DNA from: Candidatus Omnitrophota bacterium
GTDB lineage: Bacteria > Omnitrophota > Gorgyraeia > JABMRN01 > RBG-13-46-9
Direction: 5' to 3'
DNA length: 64,000 bases
Assembly: GCA_016782425.1 (NCBI GenBank)
Contig: JADHYN010000001.1
Span: 655 to 64,654 of the forward strand
Shown here: positions 9,393-16,728 of the stretch, in pieces
How the letters are laid out: every line of letters starts with the position of its first letter
How positions within the stretch are numbered: the stretch's first letter is position 1
Position numbers and translations under genes: made by a program
Notes under the pieces: model-generated
What the model saw: the letters and a program-made list of their open reading frames with translations, nothing else
What the model was told of the DNA's origin: nothing
The model's database searches: none

Positions 9393-9407
9393 TTTTTATT
9401 TTATTAC

Positions 9408-9503
9408 AAGATTACACAGATTAGGAAAAGATTACACAGATTATAAATCAGACAATCTGCGTAATCTAGGTTGCGTATTTATACGCAAGAAATCTGTGTA
9501 ATC
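9408..9503. promoter_or_regulatory. array of a repeated 13-16 bp motif (AAGATTACACAGATTA x2 direct at 9408-9423 and 9428-9443; inverted copy AATCTGTGTAATC at 9491-9503; degenerate inverted copy at 9454-9467) plus the palindrome TTGCGTATTTATACGCAA at 9471-9488
   Basis: I read these directly in the 115-bp gap between the flavoprotein stop (9508) and the maf start (9392). The spacing and orientation look like an operator or transcription-factor binding array. Confidence 0.4.
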
Positions 9504-9507
9504 ATTC

Positions 9508-10782
9508 TTAAATAGCAGCGCCTTCTCCGGCCAAATATCCGGTTGAAAACGCCTGCTGGAGATTATAACCCCCGCTCGGGGCCGTACCGTCTATTACCTC
9601 TCCGGCAAAATAAATTCCGGGAACTATTTTTGACTCCATGGTTTTCGAATCTATCTCATCCGTGGAAACACCGCCACCTGTGACCATTCCTCTATTGATT
9701 GCGAGCGCCCCGGTTACAGTTAAAGGAAAAGCCTTTAGCGCTGACACGATAAGAGCTCTTTCTCTTTTTGAGGCCTCGCTTCCCCTTTTCCCGGGATTTA
9801 TCCCGGCAATTCTAGCAAAAATGCTCGCGAGGCGTATGGGGAGAAGCTCCTTAAGGAGGTTTCCTATTTCTTTTCCCCCTGATTCTTTGAATTCCCTTAT
9901 AAGGCGCGCGTCAAGCTTTTCTCTGTCAAGGCCGGGTTTTAAGTCTATAAATACGGGTATTTCCTTTGCACGTTTCAGGCAGAGTGTTATCTCCCCGCTT
10001 AAGTCAAGAACAAGCGGCCCTGAAATCCCGAAGTGCGTAAACATGACCTCCCCTATAGGAGAAACTATTTTTTTCTGTTTACACCCCGGGGTGAAAAAAG
10101 TCACTCGCACGTTTTTAAGCGCGAGACCCTGGAGCTGGCGCACCCAAGGCTCTTTGGTCCTCAAAGGAACAAGGCCCGGCCTTAAAGGCTTCAGCTTATG
10201 CCCAAATGTTCTGGCTATCTGAAAACCATCGCCTGTTGAGCCGGTATGCTTAAAAGACATTCCGCCGGTTGATAATATGACTTTTTTTGCCGAAATGATA
10301 AGGCCCTCGTATCTTTGGCCTTTTTTTACTTTGCCTTTGATTGAAAAACCTTCACCCTTTTTTTCTATTCCGGTAACGCGAAAGTCAAAAATAGTATCGA
10401 TTTTGCGATCTTCAAGTGCTTTTTTGAGCGCCTGCACAACAAGACGCGCCTTTTGTTCCTTCGGAAAAACCCGGCCCTGACGCTCCTCAACCACCTCGAG
10501 GCCATTTTTAGTAAAAAAGTTCATTAGATCACGGTTCGAAAAAGCAGTAAATGCTGCGCGAAGAAAATTGCCCTGGGTCCCGAATTTCTCGATAAACGTA
10601 TCTAGAGATGCGGTATTCGTGATATTACACCTACCTTTACCGGTAAGGTATATTTTTTTGCCTACCGAGGAATTGCGTTCGATTAAGATGGGAGTGGTAT
10701 TTTTATCGTGCGCACTTATAGCCGCCATGCACCCGGCCGGACCTGCGCCTATTACGGCTATATCAAAAAGCTTATCCTTCAT
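9508..10782 (-). CDS. NAD(P)/FAD-dependent oxidoreductase, HI0933/BaiN family flavoprotein
   Basis: It has an N-terminal DIAVIGAGPAGCMAA dinucleotide-binding motif, and GRCNITN and GGMSFKHTGSTGDGF are typical of the HI0933-like family. Full length is 424 aa. Confidence 0.85.
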   Translation of the reverse strand: MKDKLFDIAVIGAGPAGCMAAISAHDKNTTPILIERNSSVGKKIYLTGKGRCNITNTASLDTFIEKFGTQGNFLRAAFTAFSNRDLMNFFTKNGLEVVEERQGRVFPKEQKARLVVQALKKALEDRKIDTIFDFRVTGIEKKGEGFSIKGKVKKGQRYEGLIISAKKVILSTGGMSFKHTGSTGDGFQIARTFGHKLKPLRPGLVPLRTKEPWVRQLQGLALKNVRVTFFTPGCKQKKIVSPIGEVMFTHFGISGPLVLDLSGEITLCLKRAKEIPVFIDLKPGLDREKLDARLIREFKESGGKEIGNLLKELLPIRLASIFARIAGINPGKRGSEASKRERALIVSALKAFPLTVTGALAINRGMVTGGGVSTDEIDSKTMESKIVPGIYFAGEVIDGTAPSGGYNLQQAFSTGYLAGEGAAI

Positions 10783-10862
10783 CGTATTTCATCCGCGTAC
10801 TTCGGGTTCGGCCTGTCATCGAATGTAAGGACGATTTTATTCATGCTTTCATCACCGTAGAA
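10634..10862. repeat. direct repeat copy A (~229 bp) covering the 5' end of the flavoprotein gene plus ~80 bp upstream
   Basis: It is near-identical to 12392-12619. The 40 bp immediately upstream of the ATG, catcgtatttcatccgcgtacttcgggttcggcctgtcat, are identical in both copies. Confidence 0.7.
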
Positions 10863-11012
10863 GTATATAATGGGTTCTTATCGGTTTCTGCAGTAAGGTA
10901 ATCGCTACCTTCTTGGATATAGAAAAATGCCAAAAAAACGCATATTAGGAAAATAACATGTCTCATGTGTTTTTTTGCTCTGAGAATCTTGGAAGTCTGG
11001 TTTAGAAATTTC

Positions 11013-12221
11013 TTAAACCAATTGCGTTAAAAATGTCCGGGCAGGCACAATGATAGGTTCCGTATGCCCGAAGCAATCATTGGGAACATATTCCATATCA
11101 AATGCCACCTGGAATGCGTGTTTTGCCTTAATTTTATCCTGAAAATAAATTAAATTTTTATTTAGTCCGCCTTTTGAAGACAGTTTAACCTCAACTAAAA
11201 ACCATGGTTTTTTATTTTTTGAGACCAAAAAATCTACTTCGCGTTTTTCTTTATCTCTGATAAACCACAAGCCATACTGCCCCAAACCGCAATCCGTCCA
11301 GAAATGAATTGCTTTTAACAAATGAGATGCTACTAAAGTTTCCGCTCTTTGTCCTTCATCGTTACAGACGATCCAGTCCCACAAATAAGTTTTGGGTTCT
11401 TTGATAAGAGAGCGTGGAATGTTTCTCGACCATGGCTGAATAGTAAAACAGTAAAAAAAGGATTGCAATGTCTTAATCCAGCGGCGTATTGTAGCGCTGG
11501 ATACATTAACCTTATTAGCGAGGTTCGTGTAATTAGTAAGTTGTCCGGCCTGATGTTTTAAGATTTCGGCCAGAAGCTCAATTTGTCCCAATTCCTGGAT
11601 ACGGCTTAAATCCCTAATGTCTTGGCGTATTAATTGTTCTTGTCGCAACGTCTTCCAGCGATTTAAAAATCTTGGATCATTTTTTATGAATGGTTCTGGA
11701 AAACCGCCGTTTTTAAGTAACTTTTCAAAATCTTGATTTTTGCTTTGAAAAGGTTTATTAATTTCTTTTCCTGATAAACCAACTCTTTCCAATTCTGCCA
11801 GAGACAACTGGTGTAGACGATACGGAAAATATCTACCCATTAAACTGTCCCCGCCCTTTTTATAAACATCTAATCGGGAGCTGCCTGTAACGATAATCTT
11901 AGTTCTCTCTTTGTACGTATCAAAAAAGCCTTTTAAAAACGTCTTCCATTTCCCATACTTGTGAATCTCATCAAATACGATAATAGGAATATCTTTTGCG
12001 AGCTTATTCAAGCCGGCGAAAGCGGCGACGCTTTCGACGCCTTCAAGAATAATTTTTCTATGATCCAGATTATCCCAATTCAAATACAAAAACTGGCTTG
12101 AAAACTCTTTAGCCATAAGGCTAACTGTCGTTTTTCCGGCTTGACGGGGACCGGCAAGAAAAATCATTTGCTCGTTATGTTCAAAATGTTCTTTGATAAT
12201 AGATGTGTATATTCTCTTCAT
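11013..12221 (-). CDS. AAA-family ATPase with DUF4143 C-terminal domain
   Basis: It has a Walker A motif, FLAGPRQAGKTT, and a Walker B motif, IIVFDEIH. The C-terminal region is typical of the AAA_14/DUF4143 architecture. Confidence 0.8.
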   Translation of the reverse strand: MKRIYTSIIKEHFEHNEQMIFLAGPRQAGKTTVSLMAKEFSSQFLYLNWDNLDHRKIILEGVESVAAFAGLNKLAKDIPIIVFDEIHKYGKWKTFLKGFFDTYKERTKIIVTGSSRLDVYKKGGDSLMGRYFPYRLHQLSLAELERVGLSGKEINKPFQSKNQDFEKLLKNGGFPEPFIKNDPRFLNRWKTLRQEQLIRQDIRDLSRIQELGQIELLAEILKHQAGQLTNYTNLANKVNVSSATIRRWIKTLQSFFYCFTIQPWSRNIPRSLIKEPKTYLWDWIVCNDEGQRAETLVASHLLKAIHFWTDCGLGQYGLWFIRDKEKREVDFLVSKNKKPWFLVEVKLSSKGGLNKNLIYFQDKIKAKHAFQVAFDMEYVPNDCFGHTEPIIVPARTFLTQLV

Positions 12222-12291
12222 CTGATTAATCTCACGCGCTATTTTTTCGTTAATTCGTATTATGACTAGTTTACCATATATCTAAAATTAG

Positions 12292-12540
12292 TCAAGACTG
12301 CTTTAACATATATGTCATTTTGGTCAAGCGCATCTCTGTGTACGGCGGGTTCGGGCTCTCATTAAAGGTAATGGCTATTTTCGTAACGCCCTCATCGCCG
12401 GTAAGGTATATTTTTTTGCCGATCGAGGAATTGCGCTCGATTAAGATGAGATTAGCGTTTTTGTCACACGCGCGTATCGCCGCCATGCACCCAGCTGCGC
12501 CTGCGCCTATTACGGCGATATCGAAAAAGTTATCCTTCAT
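12292..12540 (-). pseudogene. truncated paralogous fragment of the HI0933-family flavoprotein gene (N-terminal ~50 aa conserved, then frame runs out)
   Basis: MKDNFFDIAVIGAGAAGCMAAIRACDKNANLILIERNSSIGKKIYLTG aligns with residues 1-48 of the 9508..10782 product and then diverges to a stop. It lies inside direct repeat copy B. Confidence 0.7.
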
Positions 12541-12619
12541 CGTATTTCATCCGCGTACTTCGGGTTCGGCCTGTCATTGAAAGTAATGGCGATTTTATTC
12601 ACGCTCTCATCGCCGTGGG
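12392..12619. repeat. direct repeat copy B (partner of 10634-10862)
   Basis: I aligned it by eye. The shared +-frame peptide PVRYIFLP...ITAISK...LSFIVFHPRTSGSACH appears in both ORF-track entries, 10568..10828 and 12320..12580. Confidence 0.7.
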
Positions 12620-12648
12620 GTATATAGTAGTTTCGTCGCCGTAAGATT

Positions 12649-12693: not shown

Positions 12694-13839
12694 TTAAAAA
12701 TATTGTTTTTTTCTAGTCAGAATTTCCACAATTCTGCCGGCTGCCCTGCCGTCCCACATTTTAGGTACTTTGAATTTTCTGCTTCCCTTTTTAAGCACAC
12801 TCAAGGCCTTGGTTCTTATCGAATCGGACCTTGTACCTATCAACTCGTTAGTTCCTTCTGTAATTGTTACTGGGCGTTCTGTGTTTTCCCTGATTGTTAA
12901 ACAGGGGATCCCTAAAATGGTCGTTTCCTCTTGTATGCCGCCGGAATCGGTAAATACTAACTTTGCCTTAGATGTGAGCCGCAAAAAGTCTATGTAGTTT
13001 AAGGGCGCAATTGCGCAAATGCCACGCGGAGTTCCAGTTGCTCCTAAGCTATTGAAATATTTCTGCAGCTTAAATACCTCAATTTGTTTTTTTGTGCGTG
13101 GATGCACGGGAAAAATTATGGGTAACAATTTGGATACGCTTCTTAGCCCATTCAAAATTTCAACAAAAACATCTTTATTGTCCACGTTGCTTGGCCTGTG
13201 AAGGGTTAGAACAGCGTATTCCGTAATATTCTTGTTTTGGTTTAAGTTTAATTTTTCCAAAATTTCTGAGTTTTCGGCTTTTTTTCTGTACGAAAAAAGT
13301 GTATCACACATCACGTTTCCCACAAAGAATATTTTTTTTGGATTTACTCCTTCATTTTTTAAATTCCTGTTCGCGTCCTCGCATGTCGTAAAAAGATAGT
13401 CGGAAATCCTGTCTGTCAGAATTCGGTTTATTTCTTCCGGCATACTCATATCAAAGCTCCTGAGCCCGGCCTCTACATGGGCAACTGGTATCCCAAGCTT
13501 TGCAGCCGTCAAGCTGCATGCAAAAGTTGAATTAACATCACCCACTACCAAAACCACATCAGGTTGTATTTTGACAGCAACTTTTTCAAATTCAATCATA
13601 ATTTTTGCTGTCTGAACGGCGTGCGAAACAGATTTGATTCCGAGAAAAAAATTCGGTTTTGGAAGACTTAGTTTTCTAAAAATTTCACCCGACATCTTGC
13701 TGTCATAATGTTGCCCCGTGTGAACCAGGACATATTTTATATCGCCTCTATTTTGTTTTTTTTGAATATTTACCACGTTTATAATTGAAGCTATTTTAAT
13801 AAAATTCGGCCTTGTTCCTACTACAAATATTGCTTTCAT
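12694..13839 (-). CDS. wecB: UDP-N-acetylglucosamine 2-epimerase (non-hydrolysing)
   Basis: VVGTRPNFIKIA...HTGQHYD...DVVLVVGDVNST...HVEAGLRSFD...EEINR...SGGIQEE is the full-length WecB/MnaA signature. Confidence 0.85.
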   Translation of the reverse strand: MKAIFVVGTRPNFIKIASIINVVNIQKKQNRGDIKYVLVHTGQHYDSKMSGEIFRKLSLPKPNFFLGIKSVSHAVQTAKIMIEFEKVAVKIQPDVVLVVGDVNSTFACSLTAAKLGIPVAHVEAGLRSFDMSMPEEINRILTDRISDYLFTTCEDANRNLKNEGVNPKKIFFVGNVMCDTLFSYRKKAENSEILEKLNLNQNKNITEYAVLTLHRPSNVDNKDVFVEILNGLRSVSKLLPIIFPVHPRTKKQIEVFKLQKYFNSLGATGTPRGICAIAPLNYIDFLRLTSKAKLVFTDSGGIQEETTILGIPCLTIRENTERPVTITEGTNELIGTRSDSIRTKALSVLKKGSRKFKVPKMWDGRAAGRIVEILTRKKQYF

Positions 13840-15103: not shown

Positions 15104-15877
15104 TTATCTAAATTTCTTGCCAAGCCGTTTAAAACAAATCCGATCTTTTTTAGTTGGAAAAGAAAAATACGAGCCATCTGATGGATCATTTTTTATCGTT
15201 TTTACACGTCCCCTCCTAATGCAGTCGATGCCCATGATTAAAACGTCGAGTCCCTTTAACTTATTTTTAGCAAGTAGCGAACATAGGGTATCATCATGAT
15301 CGATATCAATATCTAGCTGAACGATAATATTTCCCTGATCGATTTTCTCATTAATATAGTGAAGCGTAACCGCTGTTGTTTTCTCGTTATTTACAAGCGC
15401 CCAAAAAGTTGGAAGCATCCCTCTGTAATGCGGGAGTTTTCCCGAATGAAGATTTATGCAGCCATGCTTTGGTATTTTAATTACACTATCCCTAAGTTTT
15501 TGGCTAAACGCGATACTAACAATAAGGTCAGGTTTAATTTTATTTTTTAACACGTAGATAAAATCATCGCTGTTAACGTTTTGAACGGGAAAAACGGGTA
15601 TTGAAGAAAATTTGGCTACTTTTTTTACAGAATAAAATCTTTTTTCCTTTGCATGCGACAACATGTCTTTTATTTTATAATTAATAGCCAATAAACTATG
15701 CATCATAAATTCTTTGGGCCCTAAAAAGTCATAATGCCGCAATGCCATCTTTAAAAAAGAAACGTTATGCCTCTTCCCTATTCCCAATCCAACAATTTCT
15801 TTATTTCTCTCAAAAAGATGTTGAAAAAATGTTGGCAGGTAAAATGGCTCTTCCTGGGTTAGAATAAAAATCCTCAT
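15104..15877 (-). CDS. formyltransferase-family protein (sugar N-formyltransferase-like)
   Basis: HGCINLHSGKLPHYRG matches the conserved formyl_trans_N N-H-S/D motif. It overlaps the upstream gene by ATGA. Confidence 0.7.
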   Translation of the reverse strand: MRIFILTQEEPFYLPTFFQHLFERNKEIVGLGIGKRHNVSFLKMALRHYDFLGPKEFMMHSLLAINYKIKDMLSHAKEKRFYSVKKVAKFSSIPVFPVQNVNSDDFIYVLKNKIKPDLIVSIAFSQKLRDSVIKIPKHGCINLHSGKLPHYRGMLPTFWALVNNEKTTAVTLHYINEKIDQGNIIVQLDIDIDHDDTLCSLLAKNKLKGLDVLIMGIDCIRRGRVKTIKNDPSDGSYFSFPTKKDRICFKRLGKKFR

Positions 15878-16728
15878 GTTTTATCTCCGGCCTTATGAGT
15901 CTCAATTGCGTAATCGCGTACCGCGTCTATCATTCGCGTGAATTGGTAGGTTTGGAAAATTTTTTGGAGTTTTTTTAGCGGGTTGCCAACACATATCTTC
16001 CGGCGTACTTTCGAGGTTAACCTTCTCGGAGCAGGGCTCTTTGGGTCAATGTCATATGGGTGAATATACATGACTGCCTGTATGTTTCGGTTATTTAAAT
16101 AGGATATCCCTTTAAGAAAAACCCATGCCGGAAATAACCTAAAATAACCCCCTCCGCCCATGGGAAGTTCGCAATTTTGGACGTTGAGAGAACTCAATGG
16201 GATTTCATAGAAGCGCAAACAAGCCTGATGAAGCATTCTTGTTTTCGAATTCCATCGATACCATGGGTGATATGGCGGATACAGGCTTGAATCATACAAA
16301 TAATCCGCCTTTTTCAACATATCCAAAAATGAAGTTTGCAGTTTAGAGTTTACAAAACACGGAAACCGATAACCGTATACCGGCGCACCGATTATCTGTT
16401 CGATTGTTTCTTTTGATTTTACCATATCCTCGTATAATTCGCCGGGATAGCTAGCGTTAACGTTGTGCCAGTACCCGTGGCTGGCGACTTCGTGTCCTTC
16501 CATATGAATTCTTCTTGCCAGATCAGGATACTGCTGAGCCACCCAGCCAAGAAAAAAGAATGTTGCTTTTACATTATATTTTGCTAATAAATTAAGAATT
16601 GTATTGCTATTCTCCTTGACCCTTCCTTGTACTTTTTGCCAGTTCGCTCTTGAAATATCATTAAATGCCCTACCATGAAAAAAATCTTCCACGTCCACAG
16701 AAAACATGTTTTTGACAATCGGTTTCAT
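15874..16728 (-). CDS. polysaccharide deacetylase family protein (DUF3473-type, EPS/PEP-CTERM locus-associated)
   Basis: FSVDVEDFFH...ATFFFLGWVA..YP...HEVASHGYWH is a NodB-like catalytic motif set. Confidence 0.7.
   Translation of the reverse strand: MKPIVKNMFSVDVEDFFHGRAFNDISRANWQKVQGRVKENSNTILNLLAKYNVKATFFFLGWVAQQYPDLARRIHMEGHEVASHGYWHNVNASYPGELYEDMVKSKETIEQIIGAPVYGYRFPCFVNSKLQTSFLDMLKKADYLYDSSLYPPYHPWYRWNSKTRMLHQACLRFYEIPLSSLNVQNCELPMGGGGYFRLFPAWVFLKGISYLNNRNIQAVMYIHPYDIDPKSPAPRRLTSKVRRKICVGNPLKKLQKIFQTYQFTRMIDAVRDYAIETHKAGDKT

What the first reader, a model, noticed from the sequence alone, without database searches (positions are those of the whole stretch)
10634..12619. AAA-ATPase (DUF4143) gene bracketed by ~229-bp direct repeats that duplicate the 5' end and promoter of the HI0933 flavoprotein gene; downstream copy is a pseudogene fragment
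Copy A contains the real start of the flavoprotein gene. Copy B encodes only ~50 conserved residues before collapsing (12292..12540). The 40 bp immediately upstream of the ATG are identical in both copies, while the coding parts differ at several codons. This pattern is what a Campbell-type integration would leave. A circular element carrying a homologous gene fragment recombines into the chromosomal gene, delivers the ATPase gene, and leaves a partial duplication. It also provides a second copy of the flavoprotein promoter just upstream of wecB and the whole glycan operon.
Basis: seen in the sequence. Interest (0 to 1): 0.6.

Follow-up and report, generated by a model that had tools for sequence, protein, structure and literature searches.

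The report
ATPase cassette flanked by duplicated target
A horizontally acquired single-gene cassette, encoding a candidate anti-phage ATPase-nuclease, sits between two host genes inside a diverged duplicate of its insertion site, which is the scar expected from single-crossover recombination with DNA from a related bacterium, and relatives of the cassette carry similar scars at other sites in other bacteria.

Summary
A 219-231 nt direct repeat (86% identical, no indels) brackets the AAA_14/DUF4143 ATPase gene. Copy A starts the intact HI0933 flavoprotein gene. Copy B holds only its first 48 codons. One independent assembly spans the whole structure and two more cover parts of it.

The two coding copies differ mostly at synonymous sites (dN/dS 0.15). 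Copy B therefore evolved as a working gene in a related genome and did not decay in place.

New findings:
- A third copy of the 80-nt upstream unit sits at the fragment/cassette junction.
- The repeat probably extends weakly into the end of wecB.
- The ATPase gene and its conserved promoter form a sharply bounded 1.3-kb cassette. Relatives are 77-88% identical across several phyla, whereas the flavoprotein's nearest relative is 61% identical.
- The cassette is flanked by locus-specific duplications of neighbouring gene ends or tRNA 3' halves in 6 of 24 contexts, against 1 of 102 control positions.
- It has no terminal inverted repeats, and no recombinase family recurs among its neighbours.

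It matches the unvalidated defence candidate PDC-S01. I rate it a new variant of a known kind, of moderate interest.

The parts
12694..13839 (-). wecB (UDP-GlcNAc 2-epimerase), last gene of the glycan cluster. Its last ~30 nt (about 12723-12694) and the following intergenic region (12693-12627) form the left copy of the weak repeat extension.
   Evidence: PF02350, 348 bits. Aligns to 11012-10869 at 58% over 111 columns, p 0.004-0.03.
12541..12626 (-). U_B, the upstream unit in repeat copy B. It reads ...GDESVNKIAITFNDRPNPKYADEIR* and its stop overlaps the fragment's ATG (ATGA).
   Evidence: 87% identical to U_A.
12398..12540 (-). F5'_B, the first 48 codons of a flavoprotein gene (start of the 82-aa ORF 12540->12292). 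A truncated orthologue-like fragment.
   Evidence: 24 of 144 nt differ from copy A, dN/dS 0.15.
12530..12577 (-). 48-nt block identical to 10772-10819. Candidate crossover or gene-conversion tract.
   Evidence: P = 0.009 for a run this long.
12328..12411 (-). U_C, the third and most diverged copy of unit U. It is joined to the end of F5'_B through the microhomology ATATACCTTACCGG / TATATAC(C/T)..ACGG and abuts the left end of the cassette.
   Evidence: (D2). 79.5% identical to U_B, 73% to U_A.
12264..12327 (-). Conserved 5' region of the cassette. Two tandem 32-nt units (TTGAC.....TAGTC); the second contains the only sigma-70-like promoter in the region (TTGACT-16-TAAACT, 12295-12268).
   Evidence: Conserved at 80-92% in about 35 loci from other organisms, with homology starting at -101..-114. 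Promoter scan. Tandem units also seen in L051 (D2).
11013..12221 (-). ATPase gene (402 aa): AAA_14 ATPase, HTH, and DUF4143 PD-(D/E)XK-like nuclease domain. Matches candidate defence gene PDC-S01.
   Evidence: PF13173 and PF13635. PADLOC PDC-S01, E = 1.6e-49. Walker A/B and D330/E344/K346 invariant in 46 homologues. C-terminal alpha-beta-beta-beta-alpha-beta fold modelled at pLDDT 80-96.
10869..11012 (-). 144 nt between the ATPase stop and U_A. Probably a diverged copy of the end of wecB plus the intergenic region, i.e. the right copy of the extended repeat.
10783..10868 (-). U_A, the upstream unit in repeat copy A. It contains a 21-codon uORF (10844->10779, MNKIVLTFDDRPNPKYADEIR*) whose stop overlaps the flavoprotein ATG.
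9508..10782 (-). Intact HI0933-like flavoprotein gene. Its first 143 nt (10782-10640) belong to repeat copy A. It is followed by maf, a synteny conserved in relatives.
   Evidence: F-Maf synteny in L003, L101, L104.

Best explanation
The ATPase gene is a self-contained promoter-plus-ORF cassette (window 12327-11013) acquired horizontally and lodged between wecB and the flavoprotein gene.

The repeats that bracket it are two copies of the insertion region: end of wecB, intergenic spacer, unit U, and the first 48 codons of the flavoprotein gene. They were produced by homologous single-crossover (Campbell-type) recombination. The partners were the chromosome and a circular, or tandemly duplicated, DNA that carried the cassette plus the corresponding segment of a related donor genome.

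The crossover most likely fell in one of the identical tracts: the 48-nt block around the ATG, or the 23-nt run at the end of the repeat. One copy stayed continuous with the intact gene. The other was left as a 48-codon stump.

The third U copy and the microhomology junction indicate an earlier step. In that step the cassette already sat just upstream of the flavoprotein ATG in a donor, flanked by a duplication of wecB-end/spacer/U. The 1758-bp unit was then excised or duplicated by illegitimate recombination between ATATACCTTACCGG (flavoprotein codons 44-48) and the similar sequence in front of U.

Shown: the repeats, their divergence pattern, the cassette boundaries, the cassette's horizontal spread, and the recurrence of flanking duplications.

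Inferred: the circular intermediate, the donor, the order of steps, and RecA-type recombination as the agent.
For: 1. Topology. An intact target gene lies on one side and a truncated copy on the other, in the same orientation, with start-to-start spacing of 1758 bp.

2. Copy B diverged under purifying selection. Sd = 14.0 of 32.5 synonymous sites and Nd = 10.0 of 111.5 nonsynonymous sites give dN/dS = 0.15. Random placement of the same 24 differences gives Nd = 18 +/- 1.9, and none of 5000 simulations reached 10 or fewer. There are no indels. Copy B is slightly closer to the family consensus than copy A, at 63% versus 60% mean identity to 119 homologues.

3. Divergence is heterogeneous, as between orthologous regions. 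U plus coding is 86% identical without indels. The spacer plus wecB end is about 58% identical with several indels.

4. There is a 48-nt identical tract (P = 0.009).

5. The cassette is foreign and mobile. More than 120 homologues are 77-88% identical, with source names spanning Omnitrophota, Auribacterota, Humimicrobiaceae, Hydromicrobium and Actinobacteria. Many lie on contigs about the size of the cassette. The flanking flavoprotein's best relative is 61% identical.

6. Cassette boundaries are sharp, at about -105 and at the stop codon. This holds even for pairs 91-95% identical at the nucleotide level in different contexts.

7. Flanking direct repeats of host sequence recur. They were found in 11 of 30 loci, or 6 of 24 distinct contexts, against 1 of 102 control positions (Fisher p = 1.7e-4).

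8. In L080 the displaced copy of the upstream gene's 3' end keeps the reading frame through a 6-nt indel, keeps the stop codon, and differs largely at synonymous sites. This again looks orthologue-like.

9. In L026 the 49-nt repeat is exactly the uvrC/MGMT overlap. A relative (L116) shows the uninterrupted overlapping arrangement without a cassette.

10. No recombinase is involved in cis. Only the ATPase gene lies within the 1758 bp. No integrase or transposase appears among the called genes that cover most of the window. None appears among the families shared by two or more of 107 neighbour ORFs of 33 loci. Only L053/L029 has a serine recombinase next door.
Against: - No empty site, donor genome or circular form was found. 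No close relative of this organism exists in the databases, no allele without the cassette was seen, and no short contig had terminal overlaps.
- dN/dS rests on only 48 codons of the most conserved part of the protein.
- RecA-type crossover between sequences only 86% identical is inefficient and depends on the short identical tracts.
- About three quarters of cassette contexts show no detectable flanking repeat, so a duplication is not obligatory.
- The model does not explain how the cassette reaches new targets, or why the right-hand repeat copy so often begins within 0-35 nt of the stop codon.
- In the tRNA-associated subfamily, a conserved tRNA 3'-half travels with the cassette. That looks more like an att site for a site-specific recombinase.
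Confidence: 0.55

Rival explanations
1. Site-specific integration. The repeats are attL and attR of a small integrative element whose attP mimics the 5' end of the flavoprotein gene. The recombinase acts in trans or has been lost, as in a CIME or satellite-type element.
For: - There is a perfectly identical 48-nt core inside less similar arms.
- In other loci the same cassette is followed by a conserved tRNA 3'-half. In L029/L053 it lies between an intact tRNA-Asn and a partial tRNA copy, next to a large serine recombinase gene.
- Integrative elements flanked by partial tRNAs, one copy from the host and one from the element, are well known (bioRxiv 10.1101/2020.12.28.424599).
Against: - No recombinase gene lies in the 1758-bp unit, among the called genes that cover most of the window, or recurrently near the cassette in 33 loci.
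- Closely related cassettes sit in at least 8 different targets: wecB/flavoprotein, uvrC/MGMT, a Tlc transporter, epimerase 3' ends, and tRNAs. That is not the behaviour of a site-specific enzyme.
- Similarity between the copies extends about 130 nt to one side of the core and 40 nt (weakly about 190 nt) to the other, with coding-type substitutions.
Confidence: 0.15
2. In-situ duplication. The insertion itself duplicated the target, through widely staggered breaks that were filled in or through replication template switching. The redundant copy has simply diverged since then.
For: - Several other loci have nearly identical flanking repeats that abut the cassette: L026 at 98% over 49 nt, and the Fic cassette in L051 at 97% over about 150 nt.
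- The F5'_B/U_C junction shows 13-14 nt of microhomology, typical of template switching.
Against: - A redundant 48-codon stump should accumulate changes neutrally, giving an expected dN/dS of about 0.55 when paired with a constrained copy. The observed value is 0.15, with no indel or stop, and the stump is no further from the family consensus than the live gene.
- The non-coding part of the repeat is much more diverged than the coding part. Uniform neutral decay of one copy would not produce that difference.
Confidence: 0.1
3. Self-mobilising single-gene element. The ATPase-HTH-nuclease protein itself nicks or cuts DNA at or near its cassette and target. This drives excision, capture of adjacent host DNA and reintegration, and the long, variable duplications are its signature.
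For: - It is the only gene inside the unit.
- Walker A/B and the PD-(D/E)XK triad are invariant, and an HTH is present.
- The cassette boundaries are sharp.
- Flanking repeats are enriched.
- The cassette has spread across phyla.
- A conserved pair of 32-nt units bounded by inverted hexamers sits at the left end and could be binding sites.
- In at least 10 loci another DUF4143 gene lies next to the cassette.
Against: - There are no terminal inverted repeats.
- The right end shows no excess synonymous conservation.
- Most copies have no flanking repeat.
- An unrelated Fic gene shows the same kind of flanking duplication, so the process need not be specific to the ATPase.
- The family is currently filed as a candidate defence gene with no reported role in mobility (PMC12988326).
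Confidence: 0.15
4. Assembly artefact or strain chimera.
For: Coverage of the public contigs is low (3.5-6x), and the repeat breaks Logan contigs.
Against: Contigs from three ENA assemblies of different samples match the window at 99.9-100% (L022, L110, L001/L107). L022 crosses both copies and the cassette in one gap-free alignment, and the other two cover copy B and part or all of the ATPase gene. The copies differ by 14%, so short reads can tell them apart.
Confidence: 0.02

Closest known systems
Campbell-type single-crossover integration (episome or suicide-plasmid insertion-duplication). Established genetics, from my own knowledge.
   Same: The insert is bracketed by direct repeats of the homologous segment. 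One copy continues into the intact gene and the other ends where the carried fragment ended.
   Different: This is a natural 1.3-kb single-gene cassette with no replicon or selectable vector. The repeat copies are 14% diverged, which implies an inter-lineage donor. A third partial copy points to two steps.
Complex class 1 integrons, in which ISCR1 and a resistance gene lie between partial duplications of the 3'-conserved segment. From my own knowledge, not checked here.
   Same: A small gene module lies between partial direct duplications of the adjacent host or element segment. The duplications are thought to arise when a circular intermediate carrying flanking DNA recombines homologously.
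   Different: There is no HUH rolling-circle transposase here. The only gene is an AAA_14/DUF4143 ATPase-nuclease.
tRNA-targeting integrative elements and their degenerate remnants (tycheposons; bioRxiv 10.1101/2020.12.28.424599).
   Same: Elements are flanked by a host copy and an element-borne copy of the target end. Partial tRNAs flank the cassette in L025, L029/L053 and L037, and the cargo is defence or niche genes.
   Different: The unit carries no tyrosine or serine recombinase. In the window the target is the 5' end of a protein-coding gene, and related cassettes use many different targets.
PDC-S01, a PADLOC candidate single-gene defence system (an ATPase fused to a PD-(D/E)XK domain; PMC12988326).
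   Same: The HMM match is strong (E = 1.6e-49), the domain architecture is the same, and the predicted catalytic motifs are conserved.
   Different: Defence activity has not been validated for this candidate. The papers I searched do not describe a discrete cassette with conserved promoter units and flanking target duplications.
Free-standing homing-endonuclease genes of phages. From my own knowledge.
   Same: A selfish-looking single-gene module with its own promoter is inserted precisely between conserved genes and encodes a nuclease.
   Different: Homing leaves no target duplication and needs a cassette-free homologous allele. No cleavage specificity is known here.

Membership tests
Campbell-type (single-crossover homologous) insertion-duplication | The insert is bracketed by same-orientation repeats homologous to one chromosomal segment. 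One copy continues into the intact gene and the other is truncated internally. | tested here: met
   Copy A continues into the 424-aa gene; copy B stops after codon 48.
Campbell-type (single-crossover homologous) insertion-duplication | The carried copy derives from a homologous (here orthologous) functional sequence rather than from de novo duplication. | tested here: met
   dN/dS is 0.15, against 18 +/- 1.9 nonsynonymous differences expected under neutrality and 10 observed. There are no indels. Divergence is uneven between coding and spacer.
Campbell-type (single-crossover homologous) insertion-duplication | Relatives have an unoccupied site with a single copy of the segment. | not testable with these tools
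   The nearest flavoprotein homologue is 61% identical, and the gene upstream of it differs in every relative examined. An analogous empty arrangement was seen only for locus L026, in its relative L116.
Campbell-type (single-crossover homologous) insertion-duplication | A circular, or tandemly duplicated, intermediate exists. | tested here: inconclusive
   None of 30 short contigs had terminal overlaps. Reads were not available.
Integrase-mediated integrative element (att-flanked islet, CIME or tycheposon-like) | A tyrosine or serine recombinase is encoded in or beside the element. | tested here: not met
   Only the ATPase gene lies between the repeats. None appears among the called genes that cover most of the window, and none recurs among the 107 neighbour ORFs.
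Integrase-mediated integrative element (att-flanked islet, CIME or tycheposon-like) | Related elements use one conserved target. | tested here: not met
   At least 8 different flanking contexts were found for cassettes 80-95% identical.
Integrase-mediated integrative element (att-flanked islet, CIME or tycheposon-like) | An identical core is shared by both ends. | tested here: inconclusive
   A 48-nt identical block is present, but homologous crossover or gene conversion explains it equally well.
Insertion sequence or DNA transposon | Terminal inverted repeats, a short target duplication of fixed length, and a transposase. | tested here: not met
   The ends show no inverted repeats above shuffled controls in 10 of 11 loci. 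Flanking repeats range from 26 to about 370 nt and vary between loci. No transposase domain is present.
Integron gene cassette | An attC hairpin recombination site follows the ORF, with an integron integrase nearby. | tested here: not met
   The repeated unit U has no significant secondary structure (z from -0.04 to -1.05) and no Rfam match. The cassette carries its own promoter.
PDC-S01 candidate defence gene (AAA_14 + DUF4143) | Profile match and ATPase plus PD-(D/E)XK architecture with intact motifs. | tested here: met
   PADLOC E = 1.6e-49. Pfam PF13173 and PF13635. Motifs invariant. C-terminal nuclease-like fold modelled at pLDDT 80-96, with only weak Foldseek similarity to McrC, Bax1 and VRR_NUC.
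PDC-S01 candidate defence gene (AAA_14 + DUF4143) | Protects against phage. | not testable with these tools
   The literature states that validation is pending (PMC12988326).
HI0933-like / TIGR00275 flavoprotein (copy B as a member) | Full Rossmann, barrel and H2TH domains. | tested here: not met
   Copy B covers profile positions 2-45 only and scores 45.4 bits, below the cut-off of 50. It is a gene fragment.

The most novel reading that the evidence does not exclude
The AAA_14-HTH-DUF4143 (PDC-S01) protein is the mobility factor of a minimal one-gene mobile element. It binds the paired 32-nt units at the cassette's left end and uses its ATPase and PD-(D/E)XK nuclease to excise the cassette together with adjacent host DNA, and to provoke recombination at gene ends and tRNA 3' halves. 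This produces long target duplications of variable length. If so, one of the most abundant 'candidate defence' genes of prokaryotes would be, at least in this clade, a selfish element of a new mechanistic class.
Probability: 0.15. Interest if true: 0.85.

Novelty: new variant of a known kind. Interest (0 to 1): 0.5.

Why it matters
A published survey of archaeal and bacterial genomes lists PDC-S01-type ATPase-nucleases among the most common candidate defence genes in prokaryotes (PMC12988326). How such single genes move between genomes is unclear. In this clade the gene travels as a discrete 1.3-kb promoter-plus-ORF cassette with no canonical recombinase, and it often lies inside a duplication of its target.

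The window gives a clean example in which substitution patterns show that one repeat copy came from another lineage. This points to homology-driven, single-crossover insertion as a route for defence-gene spread in uncultivated bacteria. It also gives a concrete handle, in the form of junctions, identical tracts and conserved operator-like units, for testing whether the protein itself promotes its transfer.

For annotation, the 82-aa 'flavoprotein' ORF is a fragment and should not be counted as a gene.

Tried and rejected
- **Unit U as a polysaccharide-deacetylase remnant.** U reads TFDDRPNP, which resembles NodB motif 1. No Pfam match appeared even at E <= 10, and the deacetylase in the cluster (15874-16728) has a different N-terminus. 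This stays an unverified resemblance.
- **U as a structured RNA, riboswitch or attC.** No Rfam hit at E <= 1 and folding z-scores near 0.
- **U as the flavoprotein promoter.** No sigma-70-like site was found in U. The only such site upstream of the ATPase gene is the cassette's own promoter.
- **A cis-acting site hidden in the 3' end of the ATPase ORF** (TTGACCCAATTGG resembles the left-end TTGACCAAAATTAG). Synonymous-site entropy in the last 8 codons is ordinary, at 0.61 against a mean of 0.72.
- **Terminal inverted repeats.** Absent.
- **Circular contigs.** None found.
- **The 144-nt spacer or the wecB-U spacer as decayed copies of the flavoprotein 5' end.** Not supported (p 0.1-0.8).
- **Empty site or donor.** None was found in GTDB genomes, in 5.8 billion proteins, or in other contigs of the same population. 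L114/L115 looked like an occupied/empty pair for the uvrC site but turned out to be the same sequence.
- **Close copies in cultured phages or plasmids.** None; the best plasmid hit is 54% identical.
- **Structure.** The PDB sequence search was empty. The AlphaFold model was poor outside the C-terminal domain (mean pLDDT 55), and Foldseek found nothing at E <= 0.001.
- **Literature.** A search on 'AAA_14 mobile' returned only irrelevant papers.

Full report
**1. Observation**

All genes in the region are on the minus strand. Read 5'->3' on that strand, the order is:
- wecB (13839-12694)
- a 67-nt spacer
- unit U_B (12626-12541)
- the first 48 codons of a flavoprotein gene, F5'_B (12540-12398)
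- a third, diverged copy of the unit, U_C (12411-12328)
- the ATPase cassette: promoter region 12327-12264 and ORF 12221-11013
- 144 nt of spacer (11012-10869)
- U_A (10868-10783)
- the intact 424-aa HI0933-like flavoprotein gene (10782-9508)
- maf

It covers 10640-10858 versus 12398-12616 at 86% identity without gaps. With small gaps it extends to about 231 nt.

The 'about 40 bp identical upstream of the ATG' is a 48-nt identical block at 10819-10772 and 12577-12530. A run that long arises in 0.9% of random placements of the same mismatches.

Copy B encodes 48 homologous residues and then runs into U_C.

The arrangement does not depend on one assembly. ENA contig L022 matches window 15060-4230 at 99.92% with no gaps, and crosses both copies. 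L110 and L001/L107, from two other samples, cover copy B and the ATPase gene at 99.99-100%. Logan contigs end inside or beside the identical block.

**2.

A degenerate pattern for the core of U matches exactly three times in 64 kb, where 0.01 matches are expected.

U_C directly follows the last homologous base of F5'_B. The junction shows a 13-14-nt microhomology. ATATACCTTACCGG, at flavoprotein codons 44-48, resembles the TATATAC(C/T)..ACGG that precedes U_A and U_B. U_C ends at the first conserved base of the cassette.

The 144 nt between the ATPase stop and U_A align colinearly with the last ~30 nt of wecB plus the wecB-U spacer. The match is 58% identical over 111 columns, with p = 0.004 against shuffles and 0.02-0.03 against random window segments. 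The duplicated segment therefore probably runs from the end of wecB to codon 48 of the flavoprotein gene, about 330-350 nt. It is strongly conserved only in U and the coding part.

U has no Pfam match, no Rfam match, no significant fold and no sigma-70-like promoter. In copy A it contains a 21-codon uORF whose stop overlaps the flavoprotein ATG.

**3. What the repeat copies say about their history**

Over the 48 shared codons there are 24 differences. Of these, 14.0 are synonymous (of 32.5 sites) and 10.0 are nonsynonymous (of 111.5 sites), giving dN/dS = 0.15. Placing 24 changes at random gives 18 +/- 1.9 nonsynonymous changes, and none of 5000 simulations gave 10 or fewer.

A redundant stump paired with a constrained gene should give a ratio of about 0.55. 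Copy B has no indel. It is also slightly closer to the consensus of 119 homologues than the live gene, at 63% versus 60%.

Together with the much greater divergence and the indels in the non-coding part, this is the pattern expected between orthologous regions of two related genomes. It is not the pattern expected between a gene and its decaying in-situ duplicate. Copy B's closest known relative is still copy A (81% amino-acid identity, against 76% or less for all others). The donor was therefore a near relative that is not in the databases.

**4. The insert**

The 402-aa protein has four recognisable features:
- AAA_14 and DUF4143 domains, and an HTH.
- Walker A, Walker B and a D330...E344-x-K346 motif, all invariant in 46 homologues.
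- A confidently modelled alpha-beta-beta-beta-alpha-beta C-terminal domain at pLDDT 80-96. The rest of the model is poor, and Foldseek gives only weak hits to McrC, Bax1 and VRR_NUC.
- Membership of the PD-(D/E)XK superfamily, since DUF4143 is listed there (PMC3424549).

It matches the PADLOC candidate PDC-S01 at E = 1.6e-49. That candidate is a very common but unvalidated single-gene system, described as an ATPase fused to a PD-(D/E)XK domain (PMC12988326).

More than 120 database proteins are 77-88% identical to it. The source names that are given span Omnitrophota, Auribacterota, Humimicrobiaceae, Hydromicrobium and Actinobacteria. Many of these proteins lie on contigs of 1.3-1.8 kb. The neighbouring flavoprotein's best relative is 61% identical. 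The gene has therefore moved horizontally, and recently relative to its host's divergence.

**5. A discrete cassette, often inside a target duplication**

I fetched 76 metagenomic loci that encode relatives.

*Boundaries.* Nucleotide homology between loci starts at -101 to -114 before the ATG. In one subfamily it starts at about -125, and in another at -220 to -264. It ends 0-7 nt after the stop codon. This includes pairs that are 91-95% identical within the ORF yet lie in unrelated flanks.

*Promoter region.* The conserved 5' region consists of two tandem 32-nt units of the form TTGAC...TAGTC. The second unit carries the only sigma-70-like promoter.

*Negative features.* There are no terminal inverted repeats. 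The 3' end shows no unusual synonymous conservation.

*Flanking repeats.* A direct repeat lies just outside the cassette in 11 of 30 loci with adequate flanks, which is 6 of 24 distinct contexts. Only 1 of 102 shifted control positions in the same loci has one (Fisher p = 1.7e-4 for contexts). Three further cases occur in shorter loci.

*The repeats are locus-specific host sequence.*
- L026: the last 49 nt of uvrC. This is exactly the uvrC/MGMT overlap. Relative L116 has the two genes overlapping by 47 nt with no cassette.
- L080: about 85 nt of the 3' end of a Tlc transporter gene. The displaced copy keeps the reading frame through a 6-nt indel, keeps the stop codon, and differs largely at synonymous sites.
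- L050: the C-terminus of an epimerase.
- L025, L029/L053, L037: tRNA 3' halves. Only L029/L053 has an intact tRNA-Asn upstream.

*Position.* The right-hand copy begins 7-35 nt after the stop codon in L025, L026, L029/L053, L037 and L080. In L050 it lies about 270 nt downstream.

*The control hit.* The single control hit is itself instructive. In L051 a Fic-family gene is bracketed by about 150-nt repeats (97% identical) that appear to be the 5' part of the downstream AbiEii-like gene. This is the same design as in the window.

*Neighbours.* Among 107 neighbouring ORFs from 33 loci, no integrase, resolvase or transposase family appears among the families shared by two or more ORFs. The commonest neighbour is another, distantly related DUF4143 gene (14 ORFs, in at least 10 loci). 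Sugar-nucleotide and glycan genes are frequent. Only L029/L053 has a large serine recombinase next to the cassette.

**6. Mechanism**

DNA from a related donor carried the cassette plus the homologous wecB-end/spacer/U/flavoprotein-5' segment. It recombined once with the chromosome, most plausibly in the 48-nt or the terminal 23-nt identical tract. The result was an intact gene on one side and a 48-codon stump on the other.

U_C and the microhomology junction imply an earlier state, in the donor or in an ancestor. In that state the cassette lay just upstream of the flavoprotein ATG, between copies of wecB-end/spacer/U. The 1758-bp unit was then excised as a circle, or tandemly duplicated, by illegitimate recombination between codons 44-48 and the similar sequence in front of U.

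A general cycle would account for the flanked loci. Recombination between the flanking repeats releases a circle of cassette plus one repeat copy. That copy then serves as the homology arm for integration into a naive relative. This fits the orthologue-like divergence of the repeat copies seen in the window and in L080. It also fits the right-hand copy starting at the cassette's end.

The cycle does not explain how new targets are acquired. It also does not explain why about three quarters of contexts lack a repeat.

Shown: the repeats and their statistics, cassette boundaries, horizontal spread, enrichment of flanking repeats, and absence of a cis recombinase.

Inferred: the circular intermediate, the donor, the order of events, and the recombination enzyme.

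**7. Rivals**

- *Site-specific integration by a recombinase in trans.* The identical core and the tRNA-half subfamily favour it. The many different targets, the long coding-type homology and the absence of recombinases count against it.
- *In-situ duplication.* The near-identical repeats in L026 and L051 and the microhomology favour it. For the window, the substitution pattern counts against it.
- *Self-mobilisation by the ATPase-nuclease.* This is the most novel reading. It is compatible with much of the evidence, but nothing supports it directly.
- *Assembly artefact.* Effectively excluded.

**8.

Copy B lies 3' of wecB, so it cannot act as a promoter for wecB or the glycan operon. If it has any transcriptional effect, transcription reading out of wecB would run through the fragment into the ATPase gene. 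No terminator-like site was found on that strand between them.

**9. Verdict**

The finding is genuine and well supported. It is an instance of a known kind of scar, an insertion-duplication produced by single-crossover recombination.

It also belongs to a wider pattern that the papers I searched do not describe. Only three held papers mention DUF4143 and none concerns mobility. The passages I read on PDC-S01 are survey-type. The pattern is a discrete, recombinase-less, one-gene PDC-S01 cassette that recurs inside target duplications across phyla.

I rate interest as moderate (0.5) and novelty as a new variant of a known kind.

Limits:
- The dN/dS estimate rests on 48 codons.
- There is no outgroup, donor or empty site.
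- Metagenomic loci are not fully independent of one another.
- The repeat extension into wecB is statistically weak.

Noticed in passing
window 12328-12411: A third, more diverged copy of the ~80-nt unit that precedes the flavoprotein gene. It is fused to the end of the gene fragment through 13-14 nt of microhomology and abuts the cassette.
   Followed up: yes
window 10779-10844 (and 12537-12602 in copy B): A 21-codon uORF (MNKIVLTFDDRPNPKYADEIR*) whose stop overlaps the flavoprotein ATG (ATGA). The peptide resembles NodB deacetylase motif 1 (TFDDGPNP), but no Pfam hit was obtained. It could be a leader peptide or a gene remnant.
   Followed up: partly
window 12264-12327; also L051 3893-3955: The cassette's conserved 5' region is a tandem pair of 32-nt units, each bounded by the inverted hexamers TGAC(T/C)A...TAGTC(A). 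This looks like paired operator and promoter sites for the HTH of the ATPase.
   Followed up: partly
L051 1731-3292: A Fic-family gene (356 aa, HPFRDGNGR motif) is bracketed by ~150-nt direct repeats (97% identical) that appear to be the 5' part of the downstream AbiEii-like gene. The locus is an islet of toxin-antitoxin-like genes that also holds the ATPase cassette. Target duplications are therefore not exclusive to the ATPase.
   Followed up: partly
L026 3769-3818 and 5213-5262; L116 3855-3901: The 49-nt repeat flanking the cassette in L026 is exactly the uvrC/MGMT overlap, so both genes stay intact. Relative L116 (UvrC 68% identical) has the overlapping genes with no cassette. In L026, MGMT has lost its native ribosome-binding region and starts 4 nt after the ATPase stop codon.
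   Followed up: yes
L027, L032, L033, L042, L058, L060, L067, L069/70, L081, L090: A second, distantly related DUF4143 ATPase gene (18-38% identity) lies next to the cassette, in most of these loci within a few hundred nt. Such genes cluster together.
   Followed up: partly
L029/L053 3478-3553, 5222-5267, 5169-6926: An intact tRNA-Asn is followed, in order, by about 340 nt, the cassette, a partial tRNA-like 3' half, and a 585-aa large serine recombinase on the opposite strand. This looks like tandem accretion at a tRNA integration hotspot.
   Followed up: partly
L027, L032, L033, L038: Loci carrying cassettes 94-97% identical share further 100-1100-nt modules at different distances and in different orders. 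These regions are highly mosaic.
   Followed up: no
window ~12700-45500: A roughly 33-kb glycan or O-antigen-type cluster. It contains at least five B12-binding radical-SAM enzymes, several methyltransferases, PMT_2-type and GT1/GT2 glycosyltransferases, a Wzy-like ligase, a formyltransferase and a DUF3473 deacetylase. Cassette relatives elsewhere also often neighbour sugar-nucleotide genes.
   Followed up: no
window 9407-9506: The flavoprotein-maf spacer contains a 16-nt motif, AAGATTACACAGATT(A), twice in direct orientation and once inverted (94% complementary). It may be an operator or a terminator-like element.
   Followed up: no
window 10800-12400 vs 9400-10800: G+C is about 35-40% across the cassette, as in the glycan cluster, against 44-48% in the flavoprotein gene.
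   Followed up: no
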